Made by a program: the position numbers and the translations under genes. Positions 4,691 through 58,435 of a stretch of DNA of 64,000 bases are shown here, piece after piece. The notes below the pieces were generated by a model. The model had not been told where the DNA came from. It was given only the letters and a program-made list of their open reading frames with translations, and made no database searches. The stretch comes from Squalus acanthias. Taxonomy: Eukaryota. The stretch is from assembly GCA_030390025.1 (NCBI GenBank), contig CM059431.1, positions 109,804,001-109,868,000 on the forward strand. The letters run 5' to 3'. Positions within the stretch are counted from its first letter, which is position 1. Each line of letters opens with the position of its first letter.

Positions 4691-5407
4691 CGTAACATTA
4701 CTGAAACTAATTAGTAAAATATAATAGAGATACTAAATGGCTGTGTTTTTTTATTATGGGTTTTTGGATCACTTCAGTGTAGGGAATGTCCTTTACCAGG
4801 GTGCACAAAACAGTGGATGAGATCAAAATTTCCTCCGTCAAACATCGGTCTAGATTTCCAGTCCGCACCCATTGATTTTGCGCCTGATCTGGAGTGAGCA
4901 GAGGGTGGAAAATTGCTCAGGGATGCGCTACGACATGAGGGTGTGTCTCCTTCCAATTTCCCAGTGACCGGGTCCAGCAGCAAAACGCGCACCAACACAT
5001 ACGTGGACAGTTGTGTATCAAATATATGCAAATTAGGGAGCTATGTCCTCCAAGGCATTTCCTGCAACTTGCACCATTAGAATGTTGGACACAAAGGACA
5101 CCTGTTATGTCCTGATGCCCAATGTTCATGAGGTCAGTTCAGGGCCGAAGAAGTGATTCCGTGCACCATGACCTTTGCGGGCACTCGCAGAGTATTACCT
5201 TGCGGAAAGTTTAAAACTTTGTCACCATTTCACCGGTAGCTGAGAGGCAACTACCATCAGCCCCCAATTCAGTGCAATGCCCTGACAGAGGCAAGCGAAA
5301 CCATCTCCAAAATGTTAATGACCCCCAAGAATAGAAGATCATCTCCATGGTGGGCACCTTACTGGAGATGTACCCCAATCAAAGAGGACCAGAAAGTATA
5401 GACTATA

Positions 5408-6296
5408 GGGGGAAAAATTCAGTATCGCCCCATTTGGGGCGCAATTATCGGCTGGGTGCAAAGATTAGTGCCTGGCGCTAATTATCGCTTCCGACTGCAA
5501 ACTTGGCTTTTATCGCCCCTGGAGGTGATTGGAGCGCTAAATCAGGCGCTACACACCTCTCTTAAGGCGCAAAAGCCGAGGAGCGAGGTGCCACCTCAGA
5601 GCGCTGGCGAAGCTCATGTGATGTCAGTCATCAATTGAACACAGACACAATGGCGCCGGCCAGTTCTTAAAGGGGAGGGTTGATCTTGCTCTCCATCCAC
5701 ATCTTGCTCATTGCAGCCTTGAATCTCGGCCTGGAGAGACCTGTACATCAAATCTGCTGGAAAGAACAATGGAGAGGCCCAGGGAAAGAGCTCAGAGTGC
5801 AGCCCCCACAGTCTCTTCTAAATCGATACAAGGAAGGGCAAATCAAAATGAACCTGCAAAGTGCTGCTCAGTACCCAAAACTCCTTCACACAGCGTTGAA
5901 TCTCTCCAGAAGTCTCTCTCTCTCTCTCTCTCAGAATGCGTGGTGCAAAAATGTCACCAACGAAAAAAGGCAGGAAGCATTTGCCTTTAAATAGCGCTCC
6001 CCCAGTCCCTTCCTGACTGCAAACCGCTCCCCTCAACATGTCGTTGCTAGCGGCAGGCGGTAAGCCTGGGGGCGCCACTCAATATCCGGTCCGGCGCACT
6101 ACCAGGGCGTTGCACACTCGACTGACGTCACGATCTGCAGGAGATCGTGGCGGTAGTGTTTAGCGTCGCCGCAAAATGTCTAGTTAATTTCATGAGCAGC
6201 GCAAACATCGCCGCGCACGGGCGCTAGTTGCTTTGCGCCCCATTAGCGCCCTCTTAAGGTGCTAACAGGAGGCGCAACCAACTGAATTTTTCCCCC
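5408..6296 (+). mobile_element. Harbinger-type MITE (family A)
   Basis: Perfect 16-bp TIR gggggaaaaattcagt / actgaatttttccccc; TSD ATA; homologous to 42109-43001. Confidence 0.9.
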
Positions 6297-42108: not shown

Positions 42109-43001
42109 GGGGTAGAAATTAGGTCGCGCCCCATTTGGGGCGCAAATATCGTCTGGACGCAAATATTAGCGCCTGGCGCTAATTATCGGCACTGTCTGGA
42201 AACTTCACTTTTACCGCCCCGGGAGGTGAGTGGAGCGCTAAAGCAGGCGCTGCACACCTGTCTTAAGGCGCAAAGGCCAAGGAGTGAGGCGCTAACTCAG
42301 AGCGCTGGCGAAGCTCATGTAATGTCAGTCAGCAATGGAACACACACACAATGGCACGGGCCAGTTCTTAAAGGGGATGGTTAATCTTGCTTTCCATCCA
42401 CATCCTGTTCATTGCAGCCTTGAATCTCGGCCTGGAGAGACTTGCACATCAAATGTGCTGGAAAGAACAATGGAGAGTACCAGGCAAAGAGCTCAGAGTG
42501 CAGCTCCCACAGTCTCTGCTAAATCGATACAAGGAATGGCAAATCAAAATGAACCTGCAAAGTGCTGCTCAGTACCCAAAACTCCTTCACACAACGTTGA
42601 ATCTCTCCAGAAGTCTCTCCCTCTCTCTCTCAGAATGCGTAGTTCAAAAATGCCACCAACAATAAAAGACAGGAAGAGGCCCCCTTTAAATAGCGCCCCC
42701 CCCAGCCCCACAGCGATTGATAGCGTTCCAGTCTTCCGGTCGTTGGAAGCGCCAGGCGGTAAGGCAGGGGGCGCCACTCAATTTCCGCTCCGGAGCGCCA
42801 CAAGGGCGTTGCACCATGGAATGACGTCACAATCTGCACGCGCAGGTGGTCGCAGCGGTAAGTTTTAGCGCCGCCGCACAATCTCAAGTTAAGTTCTCGA
42901 GCGGCGCAAACATCGCTGCGCCCGGCCGTTAGCGGCTTTGCGCCCCATTAGCGCCCTCTTAAGGCGCTAACGGGAGGCGCAACCAACTGAATTTTTACCC
43001 C
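42109..43001 (+). mobile_element. Harbinger MITE (family A, second copy)
   Basis: TIR ggggtagaaatt / aatttttacccc; TSD TTG; collinear with 5408-6296. Confidence 0.9.
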
Positions 43002-43544
43002 TTGAAGTTTTATAAATTATTGGGAAGGTCCAATTTGGAACATTCCTGTAGATTTTTATAAATTTACCCTCCCAGCACAGAGCTTTGTGCAATGGGAATG
43101 CATGTTGGGAATTCAGGTGCAGAGGTCAGCACGCCCTGTATTATTTTCTATTCATTAAAATTAATGGACGGAAAATTTGTCAATGGTTTAATAGTCAACG
43201 AGCTGACTTCTGTGCCCAAATTACTGATTTACACTGCCGACATACAAAGCTCTATGCCGGGAGTGCTAATTCATAACATCTATCCCATTGTGTACAGTGT
43301 TGGTCACCCATGTCTTGAAAATGGTATTGATGAATTGGAAACGGTGAAAAACAACAGCAAGGATAGCTCTGCAACTCAAAATGTTAGATTATGAAGATCG
43401 GTTGATTAAATTGCCACATGTTCAGGATGTTACAAAAAAAAAAGCTTAAAGGCATGAAAAGCACAGATGTAAGTAAGTTATTTAACAAATTGTGATTGTA
43501 GAACTTGAGTAAACATTAGCAAGCGTCATGCAAGATCAGTGCAG

Positions 43545-50789: not shown

Positions 50790-52411
50790 TGTAAGGGATT
50801 CTGACCCTGCGTGTCTCGCAGCCTGTGAGATTCACGCGGCTCTGTGCAGCCTGTATGTCAGTGCGGGTCTAGGCCTTGTTGCCTGTTCTGGTCTCCAGCC
50901 AGTCTGGGAACACTAGACACACCTGTGAGTGGTTCGAATCACTCGCCCTTACGGTTCTAGACACTGGACTTAGATGCGAGAGCAGTAATGGAGATGAAAC
51001 TCATGTAGACTTGGTTGAATGGTACGAAATGGAAAATCTTTATTGCATGATACTTAAGATTATGAAATACATGTCATAAGCACAGATTAATGACAGTACA
51101 ATCTTAGAAGCAGTTATATAGTCGATCTTAGGGAAACGAGGAACGAACGGCACATAGTAAATAGGGGCACACATTACAAATATCCTTAATCCTTAAACCC
51201 TCCCCTATCAATATCTATCCTAACTAGATTCGTAGGATTTCGAGACTCATGCTCACCACTCGTGATAACTCAGAGAAATTCCGAATAGCTGATCGGATGT
51301 TTTTCACCGCAGCACCCACGTGTCGGTCAGGAGATCTCCTGGTCCCACTTGTTTACTTGCTTCTGCTGCTCCGGCTAGCAGGCTGGACCGTCTGCTGTGA
51401 TGAAGACCTGTGTTGGTTGGTTTAACAGGTACTTTCCGAGCACAGTTGTCAATATCATCGATGTGATATGTTCTTTGCAAGTTCGAAGAAGTCTTCCTGG
51501 CAAGGAAAACTTGGCTATTCGACCTACAGGCGCGGTCGGGATTTACTGACCGTGGCGATGGATATGGTCTTCCTCTCTTCTCATCTCATCTCATCTCATC
51601 TCATCTCGGGCCTTTGGTTCCGCTGCCAGTTACCAACATAGGTCTTCGTTACGCGACACGAGGTAGATCCGAACGGATCAGAAAGTTCAACAGTCTTTTC
51701 AAAAAGGCAACAGGCAAGCAGGAGCCCGACTACGAGTACACAGGAGCAGCCACGATGATAAGAGTCGATCGGATCAGAGAAAGATGGACGGTTTGGAGCC
51801 TGCAATTATAGTGCAAAATCTTCCGTTTCCCGCCCAACCTTAATGTCCATTCTTTTGTTTAGGGTCTGGCGCTCAAATGTCTTGTATGGGTGATCTCCGT
51901 TCTTAATGGGTTTCGGGGCTACTCGTAAATGTCTGAGTACCTGTTAATATTTCTCCCATTGTTAAATCGGTCGGTGTTCTCCCTGGAGGGGTTGTGGGGC
52001 TTCCAAGTGTTTTGTATAACTACCTGCTAACGGCTCTCTCATCGTAGAGTCGTTGGGATTTTACATATTAATGTCTTTTGGATGGGCCCTTGATTACTCG
52101 GTACAATAGCTTTCATTCGTACCTGGGAGACCGATTTTAGTATTTATGTGTGTACTGCAAACCCATCATGTCTTGTGTATTATCTTCACTGTGCTGAATC
52201 TTAATCGATCTTGCACAAATGTTTATTGGAACGCCATCTTGTCTGCCTGTCGAAAAGTCTAGAGTGTTCTGTCACGAGGTGCGGCGGCCATTTTACAGGC
52301 TGCTTGTGTCCACTTTAAACCTGGCAGCATTCTGCTGAAATAAAAGCTGTTTGAACGAAACTCTGTGTTTTCTCCTTATTAATAAAATCGCGATATATTG
52401 CGAATTCTACA
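50790..52411 (-). mobile_element. Solo LTR (~1.62 kb) inside Myb exon 2
   Basis: TGTA...TACA termini; flanks share AGG (AAGGT if terminal bases are included); exon 2 rejoins as GPP|SMAHL; minus-strand AATAAA at 51039-51044; (tctca)n run. Confidence 0.82.
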
Positions 52412-57191: not shown

Positions 57192-58435
57192 AGTAAGAAA
57201 GACTTGCATTTATAAAGCTCCGTTCACAATCTTAGGACATCCCAAAGCGCTTTACAGCCAATGAAGTACTTTTGAAGTGTAGTCACTGTTGCACTGTAGG
57301 GAGCTTGACAGCCAATTTTCGCACAGCAAGGTCCCACAAACAGCAAAGAGATAGTGGCCAGAGAATCTGTTTTAGCGATGTTGGTTGAGGGATAAATATT
57401 AACCAGGACATCCCCTGCTCTTCTTCAAATAGTGCCAATGGGATCTTTTGCGCCCACCTGTGTAAGATTTCCAAAATTTGCAGATCCCCAAAAATATATC
57501 GAAAGGAAAAAATAAGGACTTTGGAACTTTAAAGGAAACGCGCCTGGACATGTTCGGCACGCGGATGGTCTGGGAATTCAAAGACCAGCAAACATTACCA
57601 TTTGGACAATAGGCCCTGGGGAAAGGCCGCCCCACCCAAAACACAGAGCCCATAGGAATACTAGGCCCAGCAAGGAACCCAAAGCAGGAGAACAAAGCAA
57701 GCTTCCATGGAACAACAACGCAACAGGATGTAAGCCATTTGATTTGGTTTAGCATAGTTGAAAGCCCATCAAAATTTCAACAAAGACAATGAACAGGCCT
57801 CACCTGAATACTCACTGCATCACGAAACCAATTTTTCGTGAGGAGTTTTGTGGGGGGGGCGGGGGGGGGTGGGGGCGAAAAAGGACTATATCTATAGCAG
57901 GACCCAAGAGCTCTCTCTCTTTTGACTCGCCGACTACACTGGAAACAAGGCTCTCTCGCAGCACTGCCCAGAAGCCACATGGTAAAGGAAGACGTTCGAT
58001 GACCAGAATCACCATCGACTTACCTGGCTGGATTTCATATTGTTAATACCCCTGTCTGGTGAGCATTATCCCTGATCTCCTGAAACTGAAACCTAACTAG
58101 AAGTGGGATTTTTGGGAGGGATAAAGGTTTTTATTTTTCTTGTATACTGTCATTTTCCTCGCCTGTAACCGTGTGCTCCCCAAACCTGTTTAAGTGTGAA
58201 GTGTGTTTAAGTTTGTTACCTTTTAACTTTAATAAAAGTTATAGTTCTTTCATTGGAACCTGTGGTCTACTGCATCTTTATTCACAACCCCTAAATAAGT
58301 CCAAGTTTTGAACCTGGGGCGTGGGAGCGATTCGAACCGCTCACTGAGTCAGGGAAAGGCTGACTCCTACCACAACCCACACCCTACACCTGATAGGGCA
58401 GACGGGGCCTCGGTTTAACATCGCATTCGAAAGAA
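57192..58435 (-). mobile_element. SacSINE1-like SINE split by the solo LTR at 57461-58388
   Basis: SINE sequence resumes across the LTR: ccacctg|atagggcagacggggcctcggtttaac. Confidence 0.85.
57461..58388 (+). mobile_element. Solo LTR (928 bp)
   Basis: TGTA...TACA; 4-bp TSD CCTG (57457-57460, 58389-58392); TATA-like ~57886; AATAAA 58231. Confidence 0.9.

What the first reader, a model, noticed from the sequence alone, without database searches (positions are those of the whole stretch)
58312..58388. tRNA-like fold with encoded CCA on the antisense strand of a solo-LTR U5 end
Seen on the minus strand from the LTR end: tgtagg-gtgtggg-ttgtggtag-gagtcag(cctttcc)ctgactc-agtg-agcgGTTCGAATCgct-cccacgc-c-CCA. 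This gives a 7-bp acceptor-like stem with a discriminator base and CCA, a 7-bp hairpin with a 7-nt loop, and a T-loop/B-box hairpin, but no D arm. The imperfect pairs are G-U on the antisense strand. On the sense strand it reads as a PBS-like TGGGGCGTGGGAGCG inside the LTR. Inference: a self-encoded tRNA mimic, such as a Pol III antisense RNA, own primer, TFIIIC site or strong-stop DNA structure.
Basis: partly seen in the sequence, partly recalled or inferred. Interest (0 to 1): 0.7.

Follow-up and report, generated by a model that had tools for sequence, protein, structure and literature searches.

The report
Primer-tRNA docking hairpin in LTR
The tRNA-like shape on the reverse strand of this retrovirus-like repeat is most likely the mirror image of an ordinary structure in the element's own RNA that helps dock its arginine-tRNA primer, not a separately made tRNA mimic.

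Summary
ARAGORN and the Rfam tRNA model find nothing. The best Rfam hit is tRNA-Sec at 19 bits against a cut-off of 47. The 7-nt "anticodon" loop is private to this copy: 30 of 30 other copies have 8 nt. The "T arm" is off register, there is no box A, and the helix runs into the "discriminator-CCA".

The site is the last 77 nt of U5 of a solo LTR (57461-58388, 4-bp duplication CCTG). The LTR belongs to a young gag/env-like ERV-type family with more than 1000 copies. Full-length copies carry a separate primer-binding site for host tRNA-Arg(TCG), so this is not the element's own primer.

Six related LTR families in the genome share an invariant sense-strand core, GAG.G..TCGAACC.CTCA, in a hairpin. 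CCA, the loop and the spacing are not conserved. TCGAACC is complementary to tRNA positions 52-58, which abut the 18 nt bound by the primer site.

Best reading (about 0.55): a U5-IR / primer-activation-signal-type element. This is a new member of a known kind and of low interest. An antisense Pol III/TFIIIC role is not excluded. The scan noted a similar case on other DNA (e1-7508199).

The parts
57457..57460 (.). left copy of the 4-bp target-site duplication CCTG
   Evidence: read directly; same 4 bases at 58389-58392
57461..58388 (+). solo LTR (928 bp, TGTAAG...CCTACA) of ERV-like family A
   Evidence: aligns over its whole length to both LTRs of two full-length elements, L031 and L032; 1350 first-look candidates in the genome, the 40 scored 97-100% identical
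58231..58236 (+). AATAAA polyadenylation signal; U5 begins a little downstream
   Evidence: read directly; its role as the poly(A) signal is inferred from its position
58312..58388 (+).
   Evidence: sense MFE in a typical copy: closing stem plus two hairpins, z -2.76, 2 of 200 shuffles; window copy z -3.45
58317..58325 (+). 5' strand of the closing (U5-IR-like) helix, GGGCGTGGG
   Evidence: pairs with 58376-58384. 9 bp with one G-U on the antisense strand; on the sense strand 5 bp and 3 bp either side of a C/A mismatch. Tail shuffles reach the score in 4%
58325..58342 (+). conserved hairpin GAGCG-ATTCGAAC-CGCTC (reads as a T-arm/B-box look-alike on the minus strand)
   Evidence: core invariant in 16 of 16 representatives of six LTR families
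58332..58343 (+). proposed primer-activation-signal-like stretch TCGAACCGCTCA
   Evidence: TCGAACC is complementary to G52-A58 of both host tRNA-Arg(TCG) isodecoders. The whole 12-mer pairs with U48-A58 of the L094 isodecoder, 11 bp with one bulge. Pairing worked out by eye from those sequences
   Evidence: Loop sequence and length differ between families. Absent in 3 LTR copies at 2 loci of family D
58376..58388 (+). 3' strand of the closing helix (58376-58384), overlapping the LTR terminal inverted repeat CCTACA (58383-58388)
58389..58392 (.). right copy of the target-site duplication CCTG
50790..52411 (-). solo LTR of related family B (1.6 kb). Same U5 core at 50927-50944 with a C-G to T-A double change. 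Terminus GTAAGGG pairs with CCCTTAC beside the hairpin

Best explanation
The region is the 3' domain of U5 of an endogenous-retrovirus-like LTR, and it works on the sense strand, in the 5' leader of the element's genomic RNA.

A stem forms between the LTR's terminal inverted repeat and an upstream U5 segment, like the U5-IR stem. It encloses a hairpin whose loop and 3' arm read TCGAACC(N)CTCA. That stretch is complementary to the 5' half of the T arm of the primer, host tRNA-Arg(TCG). This half is set free when the tRNA's 3' 18 nt anneal to the primer-binding site 3-5 nt downstream of the LTR.

The proposed sequence of events is as follows. The exposed loop bases nucleate pairing with the opened T loop. 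The tRNA strand then displaces the hairpin's 5' arm, which is itself a look-alike of the tRNA's T-stem strand. The extended duplex promotes or regulates the start of minus-strand DNA synthesis. This is what is described for the avian sarcoma/leukosis virus U5-T-psi-C interaction and the HIV-1/HIV-2 primer activation signal.

A sequence selected to be anti-tRNA, and masked by a tRNA-like partner strand, necessarily looks like part of a tRNA when read on the opposite strand.

Shown: the position, the conservation, the PBS and primer identity, the complementarity and the predicted folds. Inferred: that the pairing happens and matters.
For: (1) Position. The module is the last 77 nt of U5. In full-length elements it is followed after 3-5 nt by a PBS.

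(2) Primer. PBS variants match the 3' ends of host tRNA-Arg(TCG) genes found by pattern search (461 hits against 10 for the control pattern) and called by ARAGORN and Rfam. Several B subfamilies match 18 of 18. Family A differs by 2-3 positions.

(3) Conservation between lineages. In 16 of 16 representatives of six LTR families that are otherwise heavily diverged, GAG.G..TCGAACC.CTCA is invariant. Within the B lineage, at 81-100% identity, a block of about 38 nt around it is almost unchanged in 12 of 12 sequences while the flanks vary.

(4) Boundaries. The invariant 7-mer pairs with tRNA G52-A58 and stops exactly where PBS pairing (59-76) begins. The two bases beyond it vary. The invariant A just 3' of the stem matches U48.

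(5) Fold. The same sense-strand architecture is the MFE in families A (z -2.76), C (z -2.01) and B (z -1.25). The antisense cloverleaf is not the MFE in C (z -0.50).

(6) Stem pair 4 shows C-G (38 copies) and T-A (44 copies), with both intermediates seen (6 and 1 copies).

(7) A closing helix between the LTR terminus and the hairpin's neighbour exists in all six families with different sequences.

(8) Literature. PMC11181671 (passages) describes a PAS pairing with the T-psi-C arm, reported in all retroviral genomes and masked in a stem. PMC3185550 (passages) describes the avian sarcoma virus U5 to T-psi-C-loop interaction and HIV-2 U5 pairing with the 5' part of the T stem. PMC4974528 (passages) describes Ty1/Ty3 regions complementary to the T and D arms.
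Against: Everything is computational; no probing or transcript-end data exist.

GGTTCGA is common to most tRNAs and is also the B-box core, so the 7-mer is not specific to this reading.

The extra CTCA pairing fits only the L094 isodecoder. Most families' PBS match the other isodecoder (L093/L095), for which only 7 bp form. The signal therefore does not co-vary with the PBS type.

In family A the imperfect pairs are G-U on the antisense strand and A/C mismatches on the sense strand. This holds for one pair of the closing helix and for hairpin pair 6.

The closing helix is only moderately better than composition-matched shuffles: p 0.04 (A), 0.016 (B), 0.023 (C), 0.19 (D; 0.044 on the sense strand), 0.15 (A'), 0.54 (E).

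Both changes of the 'compensatory' pair are CpG transitions, which methylation decay alone could produce.

The hairpin variants were collected with a pattern that fixes most stem positions, so stem conservation is partly ascertained.

Within family A the module is not less substituted than its flank: 16 of 2306 aligned bases against 6 of 2460. Decay after insertion is expected to be neutral, so this is uninformative rather than contrary.
Confidence: 0.55

Rival explanations
1. Another sense-strand or DNA-level role for the conserved hairpin. One option is a kissing-loop dimerisation or packaging signal using the UUCGAA palindrome in the loop. Others are a binding site for Gag/NC, integrase or a host factor near the att end.
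For: The loop holds a 6-nt palindrome in families A, A', C and E, in 3 of the 4 family-D variants seen (one has TTCGAC) and in the window's B copy. The helix overlaps the terminal inverted repeat needed for integration. The conservation evidence does not say which function is selected.
Against: Most B subfamilies read GTCGAA in the loop, which is not a palindrome, yet keep TCGAACC (34 of 89 module instances). The invariant block is off-centre in the way tRNA pairing predicts, not symmetric as a palindrome would be.
Confidence: 0.15
2. A fossil of captured tRNA sequence. It could be an old primer-binding site plus read-through copy of a primer tRNA, or a tRNA-derived SINE head inserted in U5. 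A shift of priming to the present PBS then trapped it inside the LTR. It is kept by descent or later co-opted.
For: In family A the sense strand reads TGG followed by 24 nt that mirror the 3' end of a tRNA-like sequence. On 111 nt the tRNA-Sec model aligns end to end with a 9-bp acceptor and a 4-bp T stem. Read-through of primer tRNA during plus-strand synthesis, and the strong-stop-DNA origin proposed for tRNA-derived SINEs, are known ideas; these are recalled, not read here.
Against: TGG/CCA occurs only in A and A'. The other families have AAG, GTAAG, GGAG or AGG at that place. No host tRNA gene has a T loop, then 5 nt, then this acceptor strand: 1 genome hit, which does not look like a tRNA. 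Only the 5' half of the T arm resembles tRNA-Arg. The 3' T-stem and acceptor strands do not. The other families' modules give no tRNA-clan hit at E<=10 (17 loci). The second hairpin has none of the features of an anticodon arm.
Confidence: 0.12
3. An antisense-strand function: a B-box that recruits TFIIIC (an extra-TFIIIC-type site or insulator), a Pol III-made antisense tRNA-like RNA, or a fold at the 5' end of minus-strand strong-stop DNA.
For: GGTTCGANNC is kept on the antisense strand in all families. In family A the imperfect pairs are G-U on that strand. The antisense fold has z -2.0 to -2.3. LTRs that carry Pol III-type small-RNA sequences exist, namely Cassandra and Helenus (PMC10886601, abstract and Results part 1).
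Against: No box A in 0 of 65 modules. The first T4 run is 151 nt from the LTR end and is simply the complement of the poly(A) signal. tRNA models fail. The antisense cloverleaf is not the MFE in family C. A D subfamily lacks the middle hairpin. CCA is not conserved.
Confidence: 0.08
4. A chance cloverleaf-like fold in G/C-rich LTR sequence with no function.
For: The z-scores are modest, with 8 of 200 shuffles as good. G-rich termini and C-rich tails pair easily, as the cross-family matrix shows. The most tRNA-like details are private to the window copy.
Against: The core is invariant across six diverged families and the B lineage. The hairpin pattern occurs 271 times in the genome against 2 for the reversed control.
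Confidence: 0.05

Closest known systems
U5-IR stem-loop and U5 to T-psi-C-loop interaction of avian sarcoma/leukosis viruses (Aiyar et al. 1992, Miller et al. 1997). Seen only as citations and one-sentence descriptions in PMC3185550 and PMC3601003; details recalled
   Same: A stem built from the U5 terminal inverted repeat and upstream U5 sequence lies just 5' of the PBS. It encloses a short stretch complementary to the T loop of the primer tRNA. It overlaps the att end.
   Different: The primer here is tRNA-Arg(TCG), not tRNA-Trp. The complementary stretch sits in its own hairpin, half exposed and half masked. A second hairpin and, in family B, about 90 extra nt lie inside the closing stem. 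No functional data exist.
Primer activation signal (PAS) of HIV-1/HIV-2 (Beerens and Berkhout; reviewed in PMC11181671 and PMC3185550, passages read)
   Same: A motif of about 8 nt near the PBS is complementary to the 5' side of the primer's T arm. It is base-paired (masked) in the free RNA, so primer use can be regulated.
   Different: The position and the primer differ. Here the motif is 50-150 nt upstream of the PBS in U5. The core is the near-universal T-loop complement, so it may not discriminate between tRNAs.
Extended or bipartite primer sites of Ty1 and Ty3 (PMC4974528, passages read)
   Same: Element RNA carries extra segments complementary to the T (and D) arms of the primer tRNA. 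These are needed for primer packaging and initiation.
   Different: In Ty1 and Ty3 those segments lie downstream of the PBS or at the other end of the genome, and the primer is initiator tRNA-Met. No D-arm complement was found here.
Helenus / Cassandra / Ajax ('TRIMp3'): LTRs carrying tRNA- or 5S-derived sequence with Pol III promoter boxes (PMC10886601, abstract and Results part 1 read)
   Same: A small-RNA look-alike sits inside both LTRs of an LTR element. Animal members make 4-bp target duplications.
   Different: Helenus LTRs keep both box A (TRGCY..YGG) and box B and are found by similarity to tRNA. They belong to short non-coding TRIMs. Here there is no box A and no tRNA-model hit. The look-alike is antisense to the LTR and confined to half a T arm. 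The elements are 6.5-12 kb with gag- and env-like ORFs.
   Same: An LTR end carries a tRNA-matching hairpin next to the PBS. It was read as a folding switch for primer loading, with PAS as the closest known.
   Different: It is on different DNA with no sequence likeness. That case was described as a second PBS copy; here there is none outside family A's TGG.

Membership tests
tRNA gene / complete tRNA mimic | Recognised as a cloverleaf by tRNA finders or covariance models at their thresholds | tested here: not met
   ARAGORN found 0 genes in the window. No Rfam tRNA hit at E<=10. Best hit on 111 nt is tRNA-Sec at 19.0 bits against a cut-off of 47. Host tRNA-Arg genes score 55.7-70.1 bits in the same kind of search.
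tRNA gene / complete tRNA mimic | D arm / box A | tested here: not met
   9 unpaired nt stand in place of the D arm. A box-A-like motif is found in 0 of 65 distinct modules.
tRNA gene / complete tRNA mimic | Anticodon arm: 5-bp stem, 7-nt loop with U33 and purine 37 | tested here: not met
   7-bp stem. The loop is CCUUUCC here, with C at both of those positions. The loop is 8 nt in 30 of 30 other copies, and 8 or 10 nt with other sequences in families C, D and E.
tRNA gene / complete tRNA mimic | T arm of 5 bp with a 7-nt loop, abutting a 7-bp acceptor strand | tested here: not met
   One nucleotide short: 5 bp plus an 8-nt loop, or 6-7 bp plus a 6/4-nt loop.
tRNA gene / complete tRNA mimic | Free discriminator plus CCA, conserved | tested here: not met
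   The helix covers the discriminator and C74. CCA occurs only in families A and A'.
Helenus / TRIMp3 (Pol III-promoter LTR elements) | tRNA-derived LTR segment with both box A and box B | tested here: not met
   Box-B-like motif only.
Helenus / TRIMp3 (Pol III-promoter LTR elements) | Short non-coding TRIM structure | tested here: not met
   Elements are 6.5 kb (A) and 13.6 kb (B) with a gag-like CCHC ORF and an 827/859-aa membrane-anchored ORF.
Retroviral U5-IR / PAS-type primer-docking element | Lies in U5 of the genomic RNA leader, upstream of and close to the PBS | tested here: met
   It is the last 77 nt of U5, downstream of AATAAA. The PBS starts 3-5 nt after the LTR.
Retroviral U5-IR / PAS-type primer-docking element | Complementary to the T arm (5' half or loop) of the tRNA named by the PBS | tested here: met
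   The PBS names host tRNA-Arg(TCG). TCGAACC is complementary to G52-A58 of both isodecoders, and 11 bp with one bulge form with isodecoder L094.
Retroviral U5-IR / PAS-type primer-docking element | Stem formed by the U5 terminal inverted repeat and upstream U5 sequence | tested here: inconclusive
   It is predicted in the MFE of A, B and C and present in all six families. Against shuffled tails p ranges from 0.016 to 0.54.
Retroviral U5-IR / PAS-type primer-docking element | Signal masked by pairing in the free RNA | tested here: inconclusive
   In the predicted fold, CGCUC is in the stem and UCGAAC is in the loop. This is prediction only.
Retroviral U5-IR / PAS-type primer-docking element | Signal co-varies with the primer when the primer changes | tested here: not met
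   Families with isodecoder-2 PBS keep the extension that fits isodecoder 1. Only the 7-nt core fits both.
Retroviral U5-IR / PAS-type primer-docking element | [quoted passage not shown] | not testable with these tools
   This needs a cell-free primer-extension assay on leader RNA fragments.
LTR retroelement (ERV-like) | TG...CA LTRs, short target duplication, tRNA PBS, polypurine tract | tested here: met
   4-bp duplications CCTG, GCCT and ATAG. PBS as above. The purine run AGGAGGGAC lies before the 3' LTR in A and B. No RT or IN domain was found in the two elements read.

The most novel reading that the evidence does not exclude
The antisense strand of these LTRs is itself the working strand. 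A conserved B-box with a 9/4-type closing helix makes thousands of dispersed TFIIIC-binding or Pol III-transcribed tRNA-like units, or a tRNA-like fold at the 5' end of minus-strand strong-stop DNA stacked on the primer. The LTR family would then spread a D-armless tRNA mimic through the genome. The G-U pairs seen only on the antisense strand in family A, and the weak end-to-end tRNA-Sec alignment, are what keep this open.
Probability: 0.07. Interest if true: 0.65.

Novelty: new member of a known kind. Interest (0 to 1): 0.3.

Why it matters
If the reading is right, this is a clean natural example of a primer-docking signal outside the few laboratory retroviruses where it was defined. It has an invariant 7-mer abutting the PBS footprint on the tRNA, kept across six LTR families with thousands of copies and using tRNA-Arg.

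It also gives a practical warning. Sequences selected to pair with a tRNA look like pieces of tRNA on the opposite strand, and in LTRs they can be mistaken for tRNA-derived genes or SINE heads.

It does not open a new question. Its value is comparative: which parts of the leader are constrained in an uncharacterised ERV lineage.

Tried and rejected
RNA evidence. The look-up of sequencing runs listed no holder on record as RNA: 8 runs from 2 studies, kind guessed, kept as contigs. Laying 4 of them on a full-length element gave contigs over the whole element, with no strand, start or end information. This says nothing about sense or antisense transcripts.

RNAduplex of whole U5 domains against the tRNA gave long, loop-ridden duplexes no better than shuffles for isodecoder L094 (z +0.44 to -0.86). 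The z of -0.9 to -2.2 for L093 was inflated by its intron (one search timed out). I rejected this as a test and described the local pairing by eye instead.

Within-family conservation: the module is not less substituted than its flank. This is uninformative because copies decay neutrally after insertion.

Own-primer idea: rejected because of the separate tRNA-Arg PBS.

Host tRNA matching family A's pseudo-PBS: none found.

Classifying the element:
- Pfam finds only a CCHC knuckle. A Myb/SANT-like ORF is also found in B.
- The PDB sequence search of the 827-aa ORF gave 0 hits.
- The nearest Atlas cluster scores 0.82 and is a chordate 'hypothetical protein', a lead only.

Papers. PMC109269 and PMC192114 are not held. 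The primary ASLV and Tf1 papers were therefore seen only as citations. A search for 'primer activation signal' plus 'endogenous retrovirus' listed 3 papers. I saw the listing only and none of them is about this.

Earlier notes: none for this genome or for look-alike sequence.

I did not run DNA alignment, RNAalifold or a covariance model on the proviral copies. Pair counts were made in scripts without building a consensus, so no R-scape-type statistic exists.
Full report
WHAT IS THERE

The window lies in a 3.7-Gb eukaryotic genome. Positions 57461-58388 are a solo LTR of 928 bp. It runs TGTAAG...CCTACA and is flanked by the 4-bp duplication CCTG. It aligns end to end with both LTRs of two full-length elements, L031 and L032. 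Their LTR pairs are 96.4% and 95.4% identical and enclose 5.6 kb.

The family is abundant and young. There are 1350 first-look candidates, and the 40 that were scored are 97-100% identical over the 201-nt query.

CHECK OF THE OBSERVATION

The letters and stems are as described. The minus strand folds into a closing helix plus two hairpins at -32.0 kcal/mol, z -2.04, with 8 of 200 shuffles as good. The plus strand folds the same way with z -3.45, 0 of 200.

The tRNA resemblance is weaker than it looks.
- ARAGORN finds no gene in the window.
- Rfam at E<=10 has no tRNA hit over 2.5 kb. On 111 nt alone the best match is tRNA-Sec at 19 bits against a cut-off of 47, with the D and anticodon arms deleted.
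- The 7-nt loop is a private deletion. All 30 other distinct copies have one more base.
- The 'T arm' is one nucleotide out of register.
- The closing helix is 9 bp and swallows the 'discriminator' and the first C of CCA. The CCA also pairs in the next hairpin.
- No box A exists in any of 65 distinct modules, and the first T4 run on that strand is 151 nt from the LTR end.

THE PRIMER

In full-length elements the LTR is followed after 3-5 nt by a PBS. It reads TGGCGAC... in A and TGGTGACCGCGGCAGGAC in B, with further variants in other families.

A pattern search found 461 genomic matches to the corresponding tRNA 3' end, against 10 for the control pattern. Most lie in a 1.6-kb-period tandem array. 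Three sampled genes are tRNA-Arg(TCG) by ARAGORN and score 55.7-70.1 bits with Rfam tRNA. Several B subfamilies match one or the other of two isodecoders 18 of 18. Family A differs at 2-3 positions.

The element therefore uses a host tRNA-Arg, and the U5 look-alike is not its primer.

RELATIVES

The same genome holds at least six LTR families with a homologous U5 end.
- A (the window).
- A' (L079).
- B, a second solo LTR in the window at 50790-52411 on the minus strand. A full-length copy is in L072/L073, with 1.66-kb LTRs and duplication ATAG.
- C, with 2043 first-look candidates.
- D and E.

A pattern for the hairpin that excludes the common A, B and C forms still has 271 genomic matches, against 2 for the reversed control.

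In an alignment of 16 representatives, the sense-strand core GAG.G..TCGAACC.CTCA is invariant while most other U5 positions differ. Within the B lineage, at 81-100% identity, a block of about 38 nt around it is nearly unchanged in 12 of 12 sequences.

The features that make a tRNA are not conserved.
- TGG/CCA occurs only in A and A'.
- The second hairpin has loops of 8 or 10 nt with different sequences. In B it is replaced by a different and larger insert.
- Three D-type LTRs at two loci lack it completely, so at least one subfamily moved without it.

WHAT THE CORE MATCHES

In tRNA-Arg(TCG) isodecoder L094 the T arm reads U48-GAGGG-UUCGAGU-CCCUU. The PBS covers positions 59-76. The invariant TCGAACC is the exact complement of G52-A58, so it stops where the PBS footprint begins. 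The two bases that would face positions 59-60 vary between families. With one bulged base the pairing continues through CUCA to U48, giving 11 bp. That A lies outside the hairpin stem yet is invariant.

For the other isodecoder (L093/L095) only the 7-bp core pairs.

The hairpin's 5' arm, and therefore the antisense reading, resembles the tRNA's own T-stem strand. That is why the reverse strand looks like a T arm.

The 3' T-stem and acceptor strands of the tRNA are not mirrored. No host tRNA has the acceptor strand implied by family A. This argues against a copied whole tRNA.

FOLD

The sense strand gives the same MFE architecture in all three families tested. A stem forms between the LTR's terminal inverted repeat and the segment just 5' of the hairpin. 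The hairpin follows, with a 5-bp stem and an 8-nt loop that exposes UCGAAC. Then come the other hairpins. The z-scores are -2.76 for A, -2.01 for C and -1.25 for B. The antisense cloverleaf is the MFE in A (z -2.32) but not in C (z -0.50).

A closing helix exists in all six families with different sequences: GTGTGGG/CCCACGC, GTAAGGG/CCCTTAC, GGGGTGG/CCACTCC, AGGGGT/ACCCCT and others. G-rich ends and C-rich tails pair easily, however. Against shuffled tails p is 0.04, 0.016, 0.023, 0.19, 0.15 and 0.54.

Hairpin pair 4 is C-G in 38 and T-A in 44 of the 89 instances collected, with both intermediates present. Both changes are CpG transitions, and the collection pattern fixed most stem positions.

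MECHANISM

I read the module as a U5-IR / primer-activation-signal-type element. Reviews describe three comparable cases:
- a U5 to T-psi-C-loop interaction in avian sarcoma virus;
- pairing of U5 with the 5' part of the T stem in HIV-2;
- the HIV-1 PAS, masked in a stem and said to be present in all retroviral genomes.
These come from PMC3185550 and PMC11181671 (passages read). Ty1 and Ty3 have analogous T- and D-arm complements (PMC4974528, passages). The U5-IR loop is named in PMC3601003 (passage). The primary papers were not held.

Three things are shown here: position, conservation and complementarity. That the pairing occurs and matters is inferred.

Points against this reading:
- the extension does not follow the PBS isodecoder;
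- the 7-mer is equally a B-box core;
- in family A the imperfect pairs are G-U on the antisense strand only.

RIVALS

The rivals, with my weights, are:
- another sense-strand role such as a UUCGAA kissing loop (0.15; most B copies lack the palindrome);
- a fossil of captured tRNA or an old PBS (0.12);
- an antisense TFIIIC/Pol III or strong-stop-DNA role (0.08);
- chance (0.05).

The known LTRs with Pol III-type inserts (Cassandra, Helenus, Ajax; PMC10886601, abstract and Results part 1) keep both promoter boxes and are short non-coding TRIMs. This element meets neither criterion.

VERDICT

The feature is a new member of a known kind and of low interest.

I saw it after forming mine, and it is not independent evidence.

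Noticed in passing
window 50790-52411 (minus strand): A second solo LTR, of related family B (1.6 kb), carries the same U5 core at 50927-50944. Its flanks read AAGG on the left and AGGT on the right, so the 4-bp duplication is imperfect or offset by one base.
   Followed up: partly
L031:885-6194 and L072/L073 (full-length A and B elements): Both elements encode a gag-like ORF with one CCHC knuckle and an 827/859-aa ORF. That ORF has a furin-like RQRR site, heptad-like stretches and a C-terminal membrane anchor. It has no Pfam or PDB sequence match. No RT or integrase domain was found in ORFs of 70 aa or more. These are either non-autonomous elements or a very unusual lineage. The nearest Atlas cluster is a chordate 'hypothetical protein' at 0.82, a lead only.
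   Followed up: partly
G000 contig C26, about 38.99-41.87 Mb (e.g. L093): A very large tandem array with period about 1623 bp holds a tRNA-Arg(TCG) gene of 85 nt with an intron-like insert. It accounts for most of the 461 pattern hits. Its 3' end is the one matched by the PBS of most of these LTR families.
   Followed up: no
L076, L097 (two LTRs of one 12-kb element on C1) and L099: A family-D subfamily lacks the second ('anticodon-like') hairpin. It keeps the conserved hairpin and the terminus/tail complementarity.
   Followed up: partly
L085 (G000:C7:50799076-50799500): The perfect palindrome GAGCGGTTCGAACCGCTC sits at the centre of a long inverted repeat with arms of at least 70 nt. It is unrelated to the LTRs and looks like a foldback-type element.
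   Followed up: no
window 57846-57876: A long G-rich tract in U3 differs in length and interruptions between copies (compare L031 400-432 and 6874-6900).
   Followed up: no
L073:3531-4040 (minus strand): A Myb/SANT-like DNA-binding domain ORF (PF13873, E 5.8e-09) lies inside the B element. It is possibly a nested insertion.
   Followed up: no
window 58300-58314 and homologous places in all families: A second GAACC, again a complement of GGTTC, and TAAGTCCA are conserved just upstream of the module in 16 of 16 representatives. Their function is unknown.
   Followed up: no
window 42109-43002 and 5400-6296: Pieces 79-93% identical to internal parts of the B element lie in the opposite orientation to the B solo LTR.
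   Followed up: no
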